This document shows positions 32,951-47,348 of a DNA stretch of 64,000 nt, piece after piece. The translations under genes were made by a program, and so were the position numbers. Position 1 is the stretch's first letter. Each line of letters opens with the position of its first letter. The notes under the pieces are model-generated. The model had not been told where the DNA came from. It ran no database searches and worked only from the letters and a program-made list of their open reading frames with translations. Source of the stretch: an uncultured bacterium (GTDB lineage: Bacteria; Nitrospirota; JACRHL01); NCBI GenBank assembly GCA_965371175.1, contig CBDUXI010000002.1, positions 2,694 through 66,693 of the forward strand, read 5' to 3'.

Positions 32951-33026
<76 letters not shown>

Positions 33027-33162
33027 AAAACCTGCTGCGCGTCCCGATTGCTTAAGTTGGGTGGTGCTCGAACCCTCGTCTATCCGACTGTCTCGGGTTC
33101 TGCGCTCCATCCGCCTTGCACTCGGACCGCTCGTGACGGTTTTTTGTGGTGCCTCCACCAAA

Positions 33163-33240
33163 TGGCGCGCCTGAAGGGATTCGAACCCCTGGCCTTCGGA
33201 ACCGGAATCCGACGCTCTATCCAGCTGAGCTACAGGCGCA
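33163..33240 (-). tRNA. tRNA-Arg (anticodon CCG)
   Basis: The reverse complement reads GCGCCTGTAGCTCAGCTGGATAGAGCGTCGGATTCCGGTTCCGA...GGTTCGAATCC...GCGCGCCA. Anticodon loop is TTCCGGT. Confidence 0.85.
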
Positions 33241-33252
33241 TAGCAAAATAAA

Positions 33253-33328
33253 TGGTGGACGATACTGGACTTGAACCAGTGACCCCTGCCGTGTGAAGGC
33301 AGTGCTCTACCAACTGAGCTAATCGTCC
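33253..33328 (-). tRNA. tRNA-Val (anticodon CAC)
   Basis: The reverse complement reads GGACGATTAGCTCAGTTGGTAGAGCACTGCCTTCACACGGCAG...GGTTCAAGTCC...CGTCCACCA. Confidence 0.85.
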
Positions 33329-36406: not shown

Positions 36407-37197
36407 TCAACTCCGGTCGTGTCGGTGCCATGGCCCTCAGGCACTTCTATTTGTACAGAAAGTCGATTCCGCGTCTGCTGGAGCAGTTTTACTGGCCGGT
36501 AATGGATTTGTTGGTATGGGGCTTTGTGTCGATCTACCTGAGTCGGTTTGACGGCTCCCTGCCCAGTTTTCTGTCCTACTTTTTAGGTGGGCTGATCCTG
36601 TGGGACATGCTGTTTCGCTCCCAGGTGGGGGTGACGGTGGCCTATCTGGAAGAGGTCTGGTCCCGCAACCTGCTCAACCTGTTTGTCAGCCCGTTACGGC
36701 CCATCGAGTTTCTGGCAGGCACCATCAGCATTGCCATCTTGCGGGCCAGCTTTGCCGCCACCATCACCCTGTCTCTGGCGTGGCTGGTGTACGGCTTTAA
36801 CGCGTTGGTCATGGGCGTGTGGCTGTGGGGGTTCGTCATCAGCCTGTACGCGATGGGGTGGGCCATGGGCATCATCATCAGCGCCCTGATTTTGCGTTTC
36901 GGCCAGGGGGCGGAATCGCTGGCGTGGGGGCTGATTTTTTTGATTCAGCCGGTGGCGTGCGTGTTCTATCCGGTGGACGTACTGCCGCCTTTTTTACAGT
37001 ATATCGCCCACGCCATCCCCGCCTCCCACATATTTGAAGGCATGCGCCAGGTGCTGGACGGCGGCCCCGCCCCCATCGGGCACTTGCTGTGGGCCTACAG
37101 CCTGAACGGGGTCTATGCGGTGGTTTCCCTGCTGGTCTTCTATCGTTTTTTTGCGGAAGCCAAGCGGGAAGGGCGGCTGCTGCGGGTGGGGGAGTAA
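36403..37197 (+). CDS. ABC-2 type transporter permease
   Basis: Six-TM ABC-2 permease overlapping the ATPase gene by 4 nt. Confidence 0.75.
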   Translation: MINSGRVGAMALRHFYLYRKSIPRLLEQFYWPVMDLLVWGFVSIYLSRFDGSLPSFLSYFLGGLILWDMLFRSQVGVTVAYLEEVWSRNLLNLFVSPLRPIEFLAGTISIAILRASFAATITLSLAWLVYGFNALVMGVWLWGFVISLYAMGWAMGIIISALILRFGQGAESLAWGLIFLIQPVACVFYPVDVLPPFLQYIAHAIPASHIFEGMRQVLDGGPAPIGHLLWAYSLNGVYAVVSLLVFYRFFAEAKREGRLLRVGE

Positions 37198-37234
37198 TTC
37201 GTAGGGCACTCCCGAGCCCCGGATTGGGGTGACA

Positions 37235-37885
37235 TCAGTTGCCAGACGAAAAAGGTAATAAAGCGTGTCTTACCTCGATTTCATGGTTGCCGCTGTTTCG
37301 TTGATGCCAAGTAGTAAAGCGCTGAATAATGCTTACAGGGGCAGTTTTGATCGGGCCTTTTCGTAGCTTTATTTCGGTCTTATTCTTGGAAAGATTGTCA
37401 TGTATTTTTGTGTTGGCATACGGAATATCACCGTCCATCACATAACCAAGCATACACCCAACAGGAAGGCCCTCTGCATACTGCTCCGTAACAAATCTCT
37501 TAACCCCTTCTTTGACGTACTCCGGTGCTCGCGAGCTTCTCTTTCCCTGCGCGTTGAGTACATTGAGGCGTTTGCATTCGTAAGCAAGGTACTTATCATA
37601 ATTTTGGTCCAAAAAAAAAGCAATGTCGATTTTCCCTTTGCTGTAGGCCATGCCTGTCTCAAGGTATCCTGGAGGTTCATATTGATAATCCGACGAATAG
37701 AATACTTTCCGCGCTACTGCATCCTTGCGAAGTTTTTGCACTAAGTTGAACGTAATCTCATCTTCAATCGGCTGAGGTGTAAGAACTGCCAGGCAATCCG
37801 ACCATACGGAAGCGATGCATTCGAGCAGACGAATGTCAAATGATCTGAATCGACTGGTCCATTCCCCCGGATCGCCAACCACCAT
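37235..37885 (-). CDS. PD-(D/E)xK nuclease-like protein (putative restriction endonuclease partner)
   Basis: 'GKIDIAFFLDQNYDKYLAYECKRL' fits the D-x(n)-E-x-K motif. Its start is coupled to the upstream methyltransferase stop (TGATG). Confidence 0.5.
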   Translation of the reverse strand: MVVGDPGEWTSRFRSFDIRLLECIASVWSDCLAVLTPQPIEDEITFNLVQKLRKDAVARKVFYSSDYQYEPPGYLETGMAYSKGKIDIAFFLDQNYDKYLAYECKRLNVLNAQGKRSSRAPEYVKEGVKRFVTEQYAEGLPVGCMLGYVMDGDIPYANTKIHDNLSKNKTEIKLRKGPIKTAPVSIIQRFTTWHQRNSGNHEIEVRHALLPFSSGN

Positions 37886-40800
37886 CAGCTATGCTCCTGC
37901 CATTCACGCAAAGTAGCAGTGCTTTGGAGGTCGAGCGCGATTGCATCGGCGTCGGCCAAGGCGGCAGATCGCAGCCAAAATCGTTTCTGAGTGAGCTTAA
38001 CGACGTATAGGTGCTTTCCGGAGAAAATCCGAAAGTCCGGAATCAGTTGGAAATTTCCGGGTAGAGGCTGATGGATTTCATCGGATATACGGGAAAGTAC
38101 TTTACCAATAGAGAGATTATTTTCTTCAACATAATCGCTCCGTGACTTCGCCCTCTCCCCCAAAGTTAAGCGCAAAATTGCTAAGTCATTGTTTTTCGCT
38201 TCAAGCGCTACCTCGATCGCATACCCATCGTCGAACCAGTCTCTTAAACTGCGAACCAACGTCTTTCCATATGCGCCCCGCTCGTCGCGATTCGCGGGTT
38301 TCCAAATGTCGGGGAACCTGCTTTGACTCGGTTGTGCAGCTGGGATTAACTTCGTGACACCATCTTCAATCAGGATAACTTCATCGGCTGAAAGACAAAA
38401 ATATTCGTATGTAAGGCGGTCGATATTATCCATCAAATCACTGTCGTCACCCCGCAGGACGGAATTTGCTTCTAGGTTTGTGAGAGCTTGGTCTATGACT
38501 TGAACAAGTTCGACGGCCGCGCGTCGCGACTGTTCGGGGTTAGGTGTATCCTCAGGGGAGGGAAACGGCAACCGTAACAACTCTGCCTGTTGTACCACCG
38601 GTCGATCTGATCCAAAGGACGCGGTGCCGTGGAACGCAAACCAGATGGCCAACTTGCTGTTCAGCAGTGCTGCAAGCAACTTCCCTCGGTTTTTTTCACG
38701 CTGCGGGACAGTAATGGCCTGAATAATGTGCCGAAACGTAACAGGGCTTTCTATATAGGCAGCGCGAAGCCGCATTGGATTGGTGCTTATACCACGCGGT
38801 ATGAGGACACGCGGTCCTTGGAAGCCTCGTTCAAATCCTTTTCGACGGACATTCCCATTCTTCCAGGCCCGGAGATCTGAAACGTCTTGGGCAAGCCTCG
38901 TGAATTCTTTAATCGGCAGGAAAGGCGCTGTTGCGACAATGTCGCTGTGGTTTTTGTCCTCGATATTATCGGGGGGCTGATTAACGTTCGATGGTTGAAA
39001 CCCTTGTCCTATTATCCAGCCAGCTTGTCCTACCTGTTCCCTACGACTGAGGTAGCCAAATTCGTTTATAGTTTCGCTCATATTCGGTAGTGTCAGCATG
39101 TAATTAAAGAGCTTCTCATCAGGCCCGCTCATCCAAAGACGGCGCTTGAAGACAAACGGATCCTTTATTGCCATGCTGATATTAATAGAACTCTTGTCAG
39201 CGCTACTGAGCGTGATCAGTCTCTTGATTCGTAAATTCAGATCGGCTTTTGGAACCCAGTAGTCAAAGCAATACTGAGGAGTTCGCGACACCGGTTTTTC
39301 CAAGACAATAAGGGCAGCGGGGCGAACTGCACCTTCAAAAAGTTGAAATCGCAGGTCAGAAAAATTAATGATGCGACGAACGCGAGATTCGGTCATGAGT
39401 CGCTTGCGAGCGGCCACGGTACTTGTCGCGTGATTGTGCAGAAAACCCATAGCCGGTAAAAGAAAAGCAACAATACCGTTGTCACTCATATGGCGAAGCG
39501 ACTTCCACGTAAATGCCCAAGCATCCTCCCTGCTCGGCATTGGCAGCCGTTCTTCGTCGCACCACGATACAGAAGAGCGGTTTTCTCCGCGTCGGCTGGA
39601 CCACGGTGGGTTGCCAATAATGACATTGAACTTGAAGCTGTCTATTGGGACTGTGAAGAAATCCTGACAGCGTAGAGTCTTTCCCCACAATTCCGGGAGC
39701 ATCCTGCCTCTTCTCGCGAGTGTGCGAATTTCTGGTGGGCTGACTTCCTCCAGAAGGGCTATATAAAGTGAGAACACGGCGACGCGAACGGAGCCGCTGT
39801 TCAAATCCCAACCGTGCAGCCGCGAGATGATTGCGAGCAAGCTATCCCAGCGCAACTTCCTAGACTTACGGGACTCCCGCCAATTCTCACATAGGCGTTG
39901 AAATGTTCTCACCAGGAAAACACCGGAACCGCATGCCGGATCAAGAAAAGTGCCCTTCTCTCTCGTTGGGGCGGGAAGAAGGTCCCAGACTTGAGAAATA
40001 ACCGTATCAGCCAGGAACATGGGGGTGTAGTAAGCGCCTTGTTCCCGGCGCTTAGCTTCCTGCTCACCCAGAAACCGATCGTATACAGCGCTGATTAGCT
40101 CAACCGGAATGTATTTGAAGTTGTATCCCCAGAAGCGATATTGAGAACCTTCCCTGGCCATCTCCTCACGACCGGAACGAAAACGTGCGAGAATCCCCAA
40201 CTGACCGCCGGTCAGTTGGGGATGATGGGAACGAGTGTCGAACGAACACGGCGCGACGAAGAGATCACCGTTAAACTCTTTCCTGAGCTTGCTAAACAGG
40301 CGACTCAGCGCGCTGGTGTTTCCCGACTCAAGAAGAGAAGAAAAGCTGTCGGCCGCGCCGCTGGATGCGTCAAGGTAGTGCTGTGCGTCGGTGATGTCTC
40401 GATCTTCCAGATAGGCGATAAACATTGCCTGAATAAGCAATGCTTGAGCGGCGTCGGAAGAAAGGTCTGCTGCGCACAGGAGTCGATGACATTCACTCAG
40501 ATTAGTCAGCAGGACTTGGTCGATCCGCTCTTTCTGGACGAAGTACTCGGAATGTTCAGCCCAAAGACGGCCAGATTCAGCCCCGTAAACGAGCCCTTTG
40601 ATCTCAAGGGCATTGGCTACCGCATTAAGTGTTTCCAGCAAGCAACGATCATCAAATTTCTCATCCAGTCCAATGAAAGGCTTACGCACGAGTGAGAACG
40701 CGCGCACTGTATCTCCGGCGATTACCAGAAGGAGGCTTGCTAACCCTTGATTCCAAAGTGATGCATGAAGATCGATAACGGCTGTCTGGTCATATTCTTC

Positions 40801-41007
40801 CGTGCGAAGAATAGCTATGGTTGGAACACCTTGGACACAGAATACAGCTGACAATCCCAAGTCGCTGAGCGCGGCGCGTAGGGCACCCGCATGCGGTGAC
40901 TCCCTGACTGAAGCTTCTGTTTCAAAAAGCTCCGGCACTCCGCGCTCTGATAGATCAAGTCGATCTTTCCAGACTTCATCAAGCGGAAGCGCTCTTGGCG
41001 CGGTCAT
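37885..41007 (-). CDS. MmeI/PglX-like gamma-class N6-adenine DNA methyltransferase (1040 aa) with N-terminal extension and C-terminal target-recognition region
   Basis: Motif I 'FLDPACGSGVFLV' and motif IV 'IIGNPPW'. Preceded by 'YYTPMFLADTV' and 'YNFKYIPVELISAVYDRFL'. AGGAGAG RBS lies 5 nt upstream of ATG 41007. Confidence 0.75.
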   Translation of the reverse strand: MTAPRALPLDEVWKDRLDLSERGVPELFETEASVRESPHAGALRAALSDLGLSAVFCVQGVPTIAILRTEEYDQTAVIDLHASLWNQGLASLLLVIAGDTVRAFSLVRKPFIGLDEKFDDRCLLETLNAVANALEIKGLVYGAESGRLWAEHSEYFVQKERIDQVLLTNLSECHRLLCAADLSSDAAQALLIQAMFIAYLEDRDITDAQHYLDASSGAADSFSSLLESGNTSALSRLFSKLRKEFNGDLFVAPCSFDTRSHHPQLTGGQLGILARFRSGREEMAREGSQYRFWGYNFKYIPVELISAVYDRFLGEQEAKRREQGAYYTPMFLADTVISQVWDLLPAPTREKGTFLDPACGSGVFLVRTFQRLCENWRESRKSRKLRWDSLLAIISRLHGWDLNSGSVRVAVFSLYIALLEEVSPPEIRTLARRGRMLPELWGKTLRCQDFFTVPIDSFKFNVIIGNPPWSSRRGENRSSVSWCDEERLPMPSREDAWAFTWKSLRHMSDNGIVAFLLPAMGFLHNHATSTVAARKRLMTESRVRRIINFSDLRFQLFEGAVRPAALIVLEKPVSRTPQYCFDYWVPKADLNLRIKRLITLSSADKSSINISMAIKDPFVFKRRLWMSGPDEKLFNYMLTLPNMSETINEFGYLSRREQVGQAGWIIGQGFQPSNVNQPPDNIEDKNHSDIVATAPFLPIKEFTRLAQDVSDLRAWKNGNVRRKGFERGFQGPRVLIPRGISTNPMRLRAAYIESPVTFRHIIQAITVPQREKNRGKLLAALLNSKLAIWFAFHGTASFGSDRPVVQQAELLRLPFPSPEDTPNPEQSRRAAVELVQVIDQALTNLEANSVLRGDDSDLMDNIDRLTYEYFCLSADEVILIEDGVTKLIPAAQPSQSRFPDIWKPANRDERGAYGKTLVRSLRDWFDDGYAIEVALEAKNNDLAILRLTLGERAKSRSDYVEENNLSIGKVLSRISDEIHQPLPGNFQLIPDFRIFSGKHLYVVKLTQKRFWLRSAALADADAIALDLQSTATLREWQEHS

Positions 41008-41189
41008 CTAACTCTCCTGCGTGCAACGGTGCCGTGGCCAATGTCACAAAATCTCAACGATACAATACATGATTTTCCATTGGTCTCGGCCCGGTTTCTT
41101 GGCGGATACAGCCTACCCGAGGTCGTCGTGGGCGGCGCTTCCTTGGCCGTTCTCCACAGTTCTGCCACCTCACCTTGGCGGGAGGGCGG

Positions 41190-41768
41190 CTATTCCGGCG
41201 GCGGACCCAGGTGCTCTTTTAATATCTGTCCCAGTAAACACAACGGCAGGCCCACCACCGTAAAGTAGTCGCCGGTCACCCCTTCCACGAACACCGCGCC
41301 TTTTTCCTGAATGCCGTAGGCGCCGGCCTTGTCCATGGGTTCGCCGGTTTCCACGTAGGCGGTGATCTCGGCTTCTGACATTTTGCGGAAACGTACGCGG
41401 GTGGCGGAGGCGGTCACGGTTTCCTGATCGCCCGGCCCCAGCACTGCCACGGCGGTCCATACCGTATGTTCCCGGCCTGCAAGGCGGCGCAGCATGGCCT
41501 GTGCATCCGGCACGTCCACCGGCTTGCCCAACTGCTTGCCGTCCAGTTCCACGATGGTATCGCAGCCAATGACCACCCCGTCCGGGTTTTCTCCCTTCGC
41601 CGCTTCCGCCTTGACTGTTGCCAGCCGCAGGGCGGTTTTTTCGGCGGATTCTCCGGATATGGGGGTTTCGTCCACGTCCACGCTAGTGACATCAAACCCA
41701 TAGCCCAAATGGCCAAACAGCTCCCTGCGCCTTGGGGAGGCGGAGGCCAGCAGTATTTTTTTGCTCAT
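41190..41768 (-). CDS. maf: Maf-family nucleoside triphosphate pyrophosphatase
   Basis: 'LLASASPRRRELF' and 'GCDTIV' are Maf motifs. Confidence 0.85.
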   Translation of the reverse strand: MSKKILLASASPRRRELFGHLGYGFDVTSVDVDETPISGESAEKTALRLATVKAEAAKGENPDGVVIGCDTIVELDGKQLGKPVDVPDAQAMLRRLAGREHTVWTAVAVLGPGDQETVTASATRVRFRKMSEAEITAYVETGEPMDKAGAYGIQEKGAVFVEGVTGDYFTVVGLPLCLLGQILKEHLGPPPE

Positions 41769-47311: not shown

Positions 47312-47348
47312 AGGGCGGGCCGAACCCCAGGTTCGGCCCGCTTTTTTC
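47312..47348. terminator. hairpin GCGGGCCGAACC-CCAG-GTTCGGCCCGC flanked by an A-run and a T-run (bidirectional-terminator-like) directly after the stop of 47349..48356
   Basis: Seen in sequence. Strong hairpin + TTTTTTCTT on the plus strand; the A-tract side faces the minus-strand gene. Confidence 0.55.

What the first reader, a model, noticed from the sequence alone, without database searches (positions are those of the whole stretch)
37235..41007. Low-GC island with an MmeI/PglX-like methyltransferase whose N-terminal nuclease motif appears degenerate, coupled to a separate PD-(D/E)xK protein
The 37.2-41.1 kb segment is clearly AT-richer than the rest of the window and sits between convergent housekeeping genes. 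It encodes a 1040-aa gamma-class N6-adenine methyltransferase (FxDPACGSG and NPPW motifs) with an N-terminal region of about 290 aa and a C-terminal TRD-like region of about 450 aa. That is the architecture of Type IIL/IIG enzymes (MmeI family) and of BREX PglX. From memory of MmeI (VDLFWPGILLIEMK), the corresponding segment here reads IDLHASLWNQGLASLLLVIAGD. The Asp is kept but the E-x-K is replaced (V-I-A), so the fused nuclease domain is probably inactive. A 216-aa protein with a textbook D...ECK motif is translationally coupled immediately downstream (TGATG junction). This looks like a split arrangement: methyltransferase/recognition in one protein and nuclease in trans. Alternatively it may be a minimal PglX-plus-effector defence module without the other BREX genes. 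Either would be an unusual defence-system layout.
Basis: partly seen in the sequence, partly recalled or inferred. Interest (0 to 1): 0.7.

Follow-up and report, generated by a model that had tools for sequence, protein, structure and literature searches.

The report
Split restriction-modification gene pair
A horizontally acquired 4-kb island carries a large DNA adenine methyltransferase whose built-in nuclease-like domain has lost the usual catalytic residues, always followed by a small separate nuclease gene. The pair is widespread and unnamed, and probably works as a two-protein restriction-modification system.

Summary
Window 37198-41189 is a low-GC island (50.8% against 61.6%, z = -7.7) between an ABC-2 permease gene and maf. 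It carries a 1040-aa gamma-class N6-adenine methyltransferase and a 216-aa ORF joined by TGATG.

The small protein has invariant E41, D87 and E103-C-K105. [quoted passage not shown]

The large protein has a Type IIG-like layout. Its N-terminal 130 residues fold like a restriction endonuclease but carry no conserved D...(D/E)xK, either in 120 close relatives or in relatives of 25-36% identity.

The pairing is strict. All 80 genome loci found through the small gene, and all 4 distant loci checked, have the small gene abutting or overlapping the methylase stop. One relative is a natural fusion. About half of the loci add an upstream 158-aa gene that this window lacks.

It is not MmeI-family and not BREX. 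The best reading is a split, Type IIG-like restriction-modification system, a new variant of a known kind. I found no description of it in the literature. No biochemistry is available.

The parts
37198..41189 (.). Low-GC island inserted between the ABC-2 permease gene (+) and maf (-)
   Evidence: GC 0.508 against 0.616, z = -7.7. GC3 is 0.46 and 0.52 against 0.67-0.82 in the neighbours. Flanking genes were identified by Pfam.
37885..41007 (-). Large subunit gene, 1040 aa, Type IIG-like N6-adenine methyltransferase (modification plus presumed recognition)
   Evidence: ORF. Pfam N6_Mtase, Eco57I and MmeI_Mtase over aa 304-572. Full-length match to the PADLOC Type IIG profile PDLC03623, aa 52-1034, E = 1e-79. 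More than 2000 homologues.
40618..41007 (-). N-terminal restriction-endonuclease-like domain (aa 1-130) without a canonical D...(D/E)xK; proposed pseudo-nuclease or docking domain
40108..40617 (-). Helical connector (aa 131-300), like the N-terminal domain of HsdM, PglX and MmeI
39283..40107 (-). Gamma-class N6-adenine methyltransferase core (aa 301-575), with motif I FLDPACGSG at 39922-39948 and motif IV NPPW at 39601-39612
   Evidence: The motifs are invariant in 27 relatives.
37888..39282 (-). C-terminal region (aa 576-1040), presumed target-recognition and C-terminal domains
   Evidence: Aligns to the C-terminal two fifths of the PADLOC Type IIG profiles. Highly conserved, with many invariant columns. 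Its fold was not modelled.
37235..37885 (-). Small subunit gene, 216 aa, PD-(D/E)xK nuclease (presumed restriction subunit). E41 at 37763-37765, D87 at 37625-37627, E103-C-K105 at 37571-37579
37883..37887 (-). TGATG stop/start overlap joining the two genes
   Evidence: The same abutting or overlapping arrangement occurs in 80/80 related genome loci and 4/4 distant loci.
41008..41189 (-). 182-bp upstream intergenic region, presumed promoter. The upstream 158-aa gene found in many relatives is absent here.
   Evidence: No sigma-70-like match was reported in this stretch.

Best explanation
This is a two-protein restriction-modification module of Type IIG-like ancestry.

Proposed mechanism:
1. The 1040-aa protein recognises a DNA motif through its C-terminal region (inferred).
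2. It methylates an adenine there, which protects host DNA. This is inferred from the intact gamma-class motifs I and IV.
3. Its N-terminal domain keeps a restriction-endonuclease-like fold but has no canonical catalytic residues. It probably does not cut.
4. The translationally coupled 216-aa PD-(D/E)xK protein supplies the cleavage activity. It is most likely recruited or controlled by the large subunit through the pseudo-nuclease and helical N-terminal region, so that unmethylated sites are cut (inferred).

The island was acquired horizontally. This copy lacks the upstream 158-aa gene that accompanies about half of the related pairs.

Shown here: the gene architecture, the motifs, the predicted folds, the strict gene pairing, one fusion, and the occurrence on plasmids.

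Inferred: physical association of the two proteins, which protein cuts, sequence specificity, and a defence phenotype.
For: 1. The methyltransferase looks intact. Motif I and NPPW are invariant. Pfam N6_Mtase and Eco57I match. A full-length match to a Type IIG profile covers aa 52-1034.

2. The N-terminal domain is RE-like but lacks the triad.
- The domain has a restriction-endonuclease-like fold followed by an HsdM-like helical domain.
- There is no conserved D...(D/E)xK in 120 close relatives.
- There is none in relatives of 25-36% identity either.
- The domain is nevertheless as conserved as the rest of the protein, so it has some function.

3. The small protein looks like an active nuclease.
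- E41, D87, E103 and K105 are conserved in 120/120 relatives.
- The AF2 model has pLDDT 91 and a canonical core.

4. The pairing is strict. All 80 genome loci found through the small gene carry the large gene, or its remains, directly upstream; a few are frameshifted, shortened or cut by a contig end. All 4 loci found through distant large-protein relatives (25-30% identity) carry an overlapping 209-224-aa partner with the same motif.

5. P0381 (1312 aa) is a natural fusion of the two proteins. The nuclease profile matches its residues 1098-1309 with E = 7e-25.

6. The context is typical of mobile defence genes.
- The island has low GC.
- Copies occur on conjugative plasmids and on a 10-kb plasmid.
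- Thirteen loci have an OLD-family ATPase plus UvrD-type helicase gene pair next door.
- Neighbouring regulator genes are interchangeable: MerR, BrxR/WYL and a weak HTH_3 match.
Against: - No experiment exists. Cleavage, methylation, specificity and complex formation are all unobserved.
- Absence of a canonical triad does not prove that the N-terminal domain is inactive. D99 is 91% conserved, position 119 is always D or E, and R121 is invariant in the close family. These are not conserved in distant relatives.
- The small protein's closest folds are self-sufficient homodimeric Type IIP enzymes, so it might need no recruitment.
- The fusion protein carries E-C-R rather than E-C-K, and it could be an assembly artefact.
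Confidence: 0.6

Rival explanations
1. This is a conventional Type II R-M system. The 216-aa protein is a self-contained, homodimeric, sequence-specific endonuclease of the BamHI/BglII kind. The large protein is simply its cognate methyltransferase. The N-terminal RE-like domain has some other role, such as regulation or DNA binding.
Against: A 1040-aa IIG-type methyltransferase with its own large C-terminal region is atypical as a partner for a Type IIP enzyme. The RE-like N-terminal domain and the small gene co-occur across relatives of 25-30% identity, and one fusion exists, which suggests physical cooperation. Both proteins are unusually conserved (55-60% identity across phyla), unlike fast-diverging Type IIP enzymes.
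Confidence: 0.2
2. This is a single-chain Type IIG enzyme after all. The N-terminal domain is an active nuclease with a non-canonical active site. The small protein is an accessory, for example a second-strand cutter as in heterodimeric Type IIS enzymes, or a regulator.
Against: No conserved acidic pair plus Lys lies in the strands, in either the close or the distant family. The canonical triad sits in the partner instead.
Confidence: 0.1
3. This is a minimal BREX/PglX-like system or another non-restriction system. The methyltransferase marks self DNA and the small protein is an effector that blocks phage replication or triggers abortive infection rather than carrying out classical restriction.
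Against: PglX models score 15-41 bits against cut-offs of 400-900. There is no PglZ, BrxC, BrxL or BrxA here, and no further conserved partner in 80 loci apart from the 158-aa gene.
Confidence: 0.05
4. This is an orphan or regulatory methyltransferase with a linked repair or housekeeping nuclease (by analogy with dcm-vsr), or an inactive remnant.
For: The overlapping gene arrangement resembles dcm-vsr (established knowledge). There is no phenotype data.
Against: It sits in a low-GC mobile island and on plasmids. Both ORFs are intact, with invariant catalytic motifs under strong conservation. No repair need comparable to 5mC deamination is known for m6A (established knowledge).
Confidence: 0.05

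Closest known systems
Type IIG / IIL restriction-modification enzymes (MmeI, BpuSI, DrdV, Eco57I)
   Different: Those enzymes carry the catalytic PD-ExK in the same chain (MmeI VD70-X9-E80MK82, PMC2582602; BpuSI PD-x15-ExK, PMC3185434) and need no partner. Here the triad is missing from the large protein and present in an obligatorily linked 216-aa protein. Sequence similarity to MmeI is limited to the MTase core.
Heterodimeric Type IIS enzymes with a small catalytic subunit (BspD6I large plus small subunit; BtsI and BsrDI types)
   Different: In those systems the large subunit has its own active nuclease site, and the methyltransferases are separate proteins (established knowledge). Here the large subunit is itself the methyltransferase and seems to lack an active site.
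Type III R-M (Mod plus Res)
   Same: The methyltransferase subunit carries the specificity, and a second protein carries the PD-(D/E)xK nuclease.
   Different: Res is a large helicase-nuclease that needs ATP (established knowledge). The 216-aa partner here has no ATPase or helicase domain.
BREX PglX (BrxX)
   Same: A large gamma-class N6A methyltransferase with an HsdM-like helical domain. There are local profile and fold matches.
   Different: Scores are far below the family cut-offs, and no other BREX genes are present.
Proposed split Type IIG in Haloferax volcanii (HVO_A0006 plus HVO_A0237; PMC4389544)
   Same: The idea that a Type IIG nuclease module and the methyltransferase module can be separate polypeptides.
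   Different: In Haloferax the nuclease piece is a fragment homologous to the Type IIG N-terminus, unlinked and flanked by transposases. Here the large protein keeps an N-terminal RE-like domain, and the partner is an unrelated PD-(D/E)xK family (hhalign found no homology) in a conserved operon.

Membership tests
MmeI family (Type IIL) | N-terminal PD-ExK catalytic motif (VD70-X9-E80-M-K82 in MmeI, PMC2582602) | tested here: not met
No conserved D...(D/E)xK in aa 1-130 in 120 close relatives or in distant relatives.
MmeI family (Type IIL) | Sequence similarity over the whole chain, including the nuclease, helical, TRD and C-terminal domains | tested here: not met
   Pfam matched only MmeI_Mtase, at 27.9 bits against a cut-off of 27, over aa 353-418. 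The profile search of solved structures matched MmeI over 29 residues at E = 0.23.
MmeI family (Type IIL) | Gamma-class N6-adenine methyltransferase motifs (motif I, NPPF/W) | tested here: met
   FLDPACGSG and NPPW are present and invariant.
Type IIG R-M (restriction and modification in one polypeptide) | Overall architecture and profile similarity | tested here: met
   PADLOC PDLC03623, aa 52-1034 against profile positions 51-1019 of 1022, E = 1e-79; PDLC03603, E = 5e-37.
Type IIG R-M (restriction and modification in one polypeptide) | Catalytic nuclease site in the same chain as the methyltransferase | tested here: not met
   The canonical triad is absent from the large protein and present in the separate 216-aa protein. 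Activity itself was not tested.
BREX (PglX) | Score above the curated PglX model cut-offs | tested here: not met
   NCBIfam BREX-1, -2, -5 and -6 PglX models score 15-41 bits against cut-offs of 400-900.
BREX (PglX) | Neighbouring PglZ, BrxC and other BREX genes | tested here: not met
   The flanks are an ABC transporter, Maf, RluD-like, TPR, LspA and IleS genes. No such conserved partner was found in 80 related loci.
PD-(D/E)xK nuclease superfamily (small protein) | Catalytic D...(D/E)xK on the second and third core strands, with a Glu on the preceding helix | tested here: met
   E41 starts helix 41-54. D87 is at the start of strand 86-91. E103 and K105 lie in strand 99-107. All four are 120/120 conserved. 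ExK is kept in 5 of 6 distant partners, one of them by eye after an alignment shift.
PD-(D/E)xK nuclease superfamily (small protein) | [quoted passage not shown] | tested here: met
PD-(D/E)xK nuclease superfamily (small protein) | Mg-dependent DNA cleavage | not testable with these tools
   Needs biochemistry.
Heterodimeric Type IIS (BspD6I-like) | Physical complex of the small catalytic subunit with the large recognition subunit | not testable with these tools
Indirect support: strict gene pairing and one fusion.
Type III R-M | Res subunit with superfamily 2 helicase motifs | tested here: not met
   The partner is 216 aa with no Pfam, NCBIfam or PADLOC hit and no P-loop domain in the model.

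The most novel reading that the evidence does not exclude
The pair represents an undescribed and widespread class of restriction-modification system. The N-terminal domain family has more than 1000 clusters at 50% identity, spread over many bacterial phyla and plasmids. In this class the cis nuclease domain of a Type IIG-like enzyme is a conserved pseudo-nuclease, whose job is to dock and gate a separate PD-(D/E)xK subunit belonging to no named family. Current defence-annotation tools would then misread these loci as single-protein Type IIG enzymes, or as an 'N-6 DNA methylase' plus a 'hypothetical protein'.
Probability: 0.4. Interest if true: 0.65.

Novelty: new variant of a known kind. Interest (0 to 1): 0.5.

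Why it matters
If the split reading is right, a large group of loci that PADLOC-type tools call single-chain Type IIG enzymes actually needs a second, unnamed protein to cut DNA. That would have three consequences.

- The annotation of these loci would need correcting.
- A family of at least 871 proteins with no Pfam, NCBIfam or PADLOC model would gain a function.
- It would give a natural example of a pseudo-nuclease domain kept as an interaction or control module.

A separable recognition-plus-methylation subunit and a small detachable cutter would also be of practical interest for enzyme engineering. The underlying principle, methylation-protected restriction, is not new.

Tried and rejected
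1. Sequence searches for the small protein in Pfam, NCBIfam, PADLOC, PHROGs and PDB sequences, with single sequence and with profile. All were empty.

2. Profile-profile comparison of the N-terminal domain with the small nuclease, to test for a duplication or fission origin. No homology was found.

3. Foldseek of the small model against the PDB. Nothing was significant. The afdb50 library was unavailable.

4. An empty-site test for the island.
- Exact-protein look-ups of the small protein and of the flanking permease found nothing on record.
- An exact 24-mer from the permease 3' end had no metagenome match.
- The closest permease relatives are at most 56% identical and are not syntenic with maf.
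- So no near relative of the host was available.

5. Cluster look-up for source names gave no names or accessions.

6. Literature searches found no description of this pair.

7. The MmeI-based residue alignment was rejected.

8. BREX/PglX membership was rejected.

9. A first HMM of the upstream 158-aa family was contaminated by a read-through ORF. It was rebuilt.

10. The sigma-70 promoter and terminator scan gave nothing informative in the 182-bp upstream region.
Full report
**1. What is in the sequence**

Two ORFs lie on the minus strand: 37885..41007 (1040 aa) and 37235..37885 (216 aa). They share one base, and the junction reads TGATG on the coding strand.

The stretch between the flanking genes, 37198-41189, has GC 0.508 against 0.616 for the rest of the window. 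No same-length window elsewhere falls below 0.579, which gives z = -7.7. Third-codon-position GC is 0.46 and 0.52 for the two genes, against 0.67-0.82 in eight neighbouring genes.

The flanks are an ABC transporter ATPase and ABC-2 permease on the plus strand. On the minus strand are maf, an RluD-like pseudouridine synthase, a TPR protein, lspA and ileS.

No integrase, tRNA or clear repeat marks the borders. The nearest tRNAs are 4 kb away. The only flanking repeat is an imperfect 19-mer.

**2. The large protein**

Pfam finds N6_Mtase, Eco57I and, just at threshold, MmeI_Mtase over aa 304-572. Motif I (FLDPACGSG) and motif IV (NPPW) are present and invariant among relatives.

A PADLOC Type IIG REase-MTase profile aligns over almost the whole chain: aa 52-1034 against profile positions 51-1019 of 1022, E = 1e-79. 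BREX PglX models reach only 15-41 bits against cut-offs of 400-900.

Against solved structures, only methyltransferase cores match by sequence. MmeI matches over 29 residues at E = 0.23.

An AF2 model of aa 1-300 has pLDDT 76. It shows helix 40-49, strands 54-58 and 61-69, helix 74-87, strands 92-97, 100-105 and 122-128, and then an all-helical region.

The domain order is therefore that of Type IIG/IIL enzymes.

**3. Is the cis nuclease domain degenerate?**

That alignment does not hold. Residues 74-87 are a predicted helix, and D79 is D in only 72 of 120 relatives.

The conclusion nevertheless stands. The conserved residues in aa 1-130 are W13, K14, R22, E26, E29, H39, R44, S53, C57, Q59, P62, T63, Y72, H81, W85, N86, Q87, G88, D99 (91%), T100, R102, S105, R108 and R121. 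No acidic-acidic-lysine set sits on consecutive strands.

A profile of the N-terminal 300 aa finds 1281 clusters at 50% identity (E <= 1e-3), most of them proteins of about 1020-1100 aa. Relatives of 25-36% identity keep the CV..PT and WNQG signatures but no catalytic triad. The partly conserved D99, D/E119 and R121 of the close family are not kept in them.

The domain is as conserved as the rest of the protein, so it is functional but probably not a canonical nuclease. This is an inference from sequence and a medium-confidence model. Activity was not tested.

**4. The small protein**

It has no match in Pfam, NCBIfam, PADLOC, PHROGs or PDB sequences. It does have 871 homologues.

E41, D87, E103 and K105 are identical in 120 of 120 homologues. 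The local signature is G-x-I-D ... Y-E-C-K-R-L-N.

The AF2 model is confident (pLDDT 91, pTM 0.88). It places E41 at the start of helix 41-54, D87 at the start of strand 86-91 and E103/K105 in strand 99-107. [quoted passage not shown]

**5. The pair is a unit**

A genome scan with the small protein returned 80 loci. They come from Alpha-, Gamma- and Deltaproteobacteria, Acidobacteria, Gemmatimonadetes, Bacteroidetes, Spirochaetia, Dadabacteria and Binatia.

In all 80 loci the large gene, or its remains, lies directly upstream on the same strand. A few are frameshifted, shortened or cut by a contig end.

Four loci were found through distant large-protein relatives (25-30% identity). Each has a 209-224-aa gene overlapping the methylase stop. 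These partners keep E41 and D87, and five of six keep ExK.

One cluster representative, P0381 (1312 aa), is a fusion of the two. The nuclease profile matches its residues 1098-1309 at E = 7e-25. It reads E-C-R rather than E-C-K, and it may be an assembly artefact.

Copies lie on plasmids: Mameliella alba pKUB112 and Sagittula p5 (both conjugative), a Bradyrhizobium elkanii plasmid and a 10-kb Hoeflea plasmid. On the two plasmids inspected (Mameliella, Sagittula) the annotation reads only 'hypothetical protein / N-6 DNA methylase / hypothetical protein'. No copy was found in phage records.

**6. Accessory genes**

A 158-aa gene overlaps the start of the large gene.
- It is intact in about 45 of the 80 loci.
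- About 9 further loci carry fragments.
- 26 loci and this window lack it.

It has no Pfam match. I read its N-terminus as HTH-like, but that is inspection only. Distant loci carry instead a MerR_1 gene (L083), a BrxR/WYL regulator (L084) or a weak HTH_3 match (L086). This looks like interchangeable regulators.

Thirteen loci have an OLD-family ATPase/TOPRIM gene plus a UvrD-type helicase gene, which is Gabija-like, immediately downstream. That fits a defence-island setting.

**7. Mechanism**

Most likely (confidence about 0.6), the large protein recognises and methylates a motif. The small PD-(D/E)xK protein is the restriction subunit and acts with, or under the control of, the large one. The conserved pseudo-nuclease and helical N-terminus is the likely docking or gating surface.

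The system works like a cross between a Type IIG enzyme and the heterodimeric Type IIS enzymes with a small catalytic subunit. It also resembles a Type III system without the motor.

Rivals:
- An ordinary Type II system with an independent BamHI-like enzyme (0.2).
- A true single-chain IIG enzyme with a non-canonical active site, plus an accessory second-strand cutter (0.1).
- A BREX-like non-cleaving system (0.05).
- An orphan methylase with a repair nuclease (0.05).

**8. Novelty and score**

Three literature searches found no description of this pair. The nearest idea is the proposed split Type IIG of Haloferax (PMC4389544), which differs in kind.

The principle is classical restriction-modification, so this is a new variant of a known kind rather than a new category. 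Everything about function is inferred. Interest 0.5.

Noticed in passing
window 40193-40223: There is a perfect 31-bp palindrome (15-nt arms, 1-nt centre; ATCCCCAACTGACCG C CGGTCAGTTGGGGAT) inside the large ORF, at codons about 262-272. It is the longest perfect hairpin in the 64-kb window. It is not present at the equivalent place in 76 homologous loci, where the longest arm is 8 nt. Its purpose is unknown.
   Followed up: partly
window 37167-37185 and 41180-41198: An imperfect 19-nt direct repeat (79% identical, shared core AGGGCGGCT) sits just outside both ends of the low-GC island, in the 3' ends of the permease and maf genes. It could be insertion microhomology or chance.
   Followed up: no
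L002 6427-6900, L027 360-836 and about 45 of loci L001-L080: A conserved 158-aa gene overlaps the start of the methylase gene in many relatives. About 9 further loci carry fragments of it, and it is absent from this window. It has no Pfam match, and its N-terminus looks HTH-like by eye. It may be a regulator or a third subunit.
   Followed up: partly
L027 4644-8590 (Hoeflea plasmid) and 12 other loci: An OLD-family AAA ATPase/TOPRIM gene and a UvrD-type helicase gene, which together are Gabija-like, lie directly downstream of the pair in 13 related loci.
   Followed up: partly
P0381 (1312 aa, cluster representative): This protein is an apparent natural fusion of the methylase and the small nuclease. 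The nuclease motif reads E-C-R instead of E-C-K. It could be a real fusion or a lost stop codon in a metagenome assembly.
   Followed up: partly
L083 4531-5004; L084 933-2018; L086 3529-3819: Distant relatives of the pair have different upstream DNA-binding genes: MerR_1, BrxR/WYL and a weak HTH_3 match. This suggests swappable regulators.
   Followed up: partly
window 47315-47341: A GC-rich perfect hairpin with 12-nt arms (GCGGGCCGAACC CCA GGTTCGGCCCGC) lies about 160 bp upstream of the ileS start, on the ileS upstream side. It is possibly a terminator or leader element.
   Followed up: no
window 32951-33328: A cluster of tRNA-Lys(CTT), tRNA-Arg(CCG) and tRNA-Val(CAC) genes lies on the minus strand, 4 kb from the island and not adjacent to it.
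   Followed up: no
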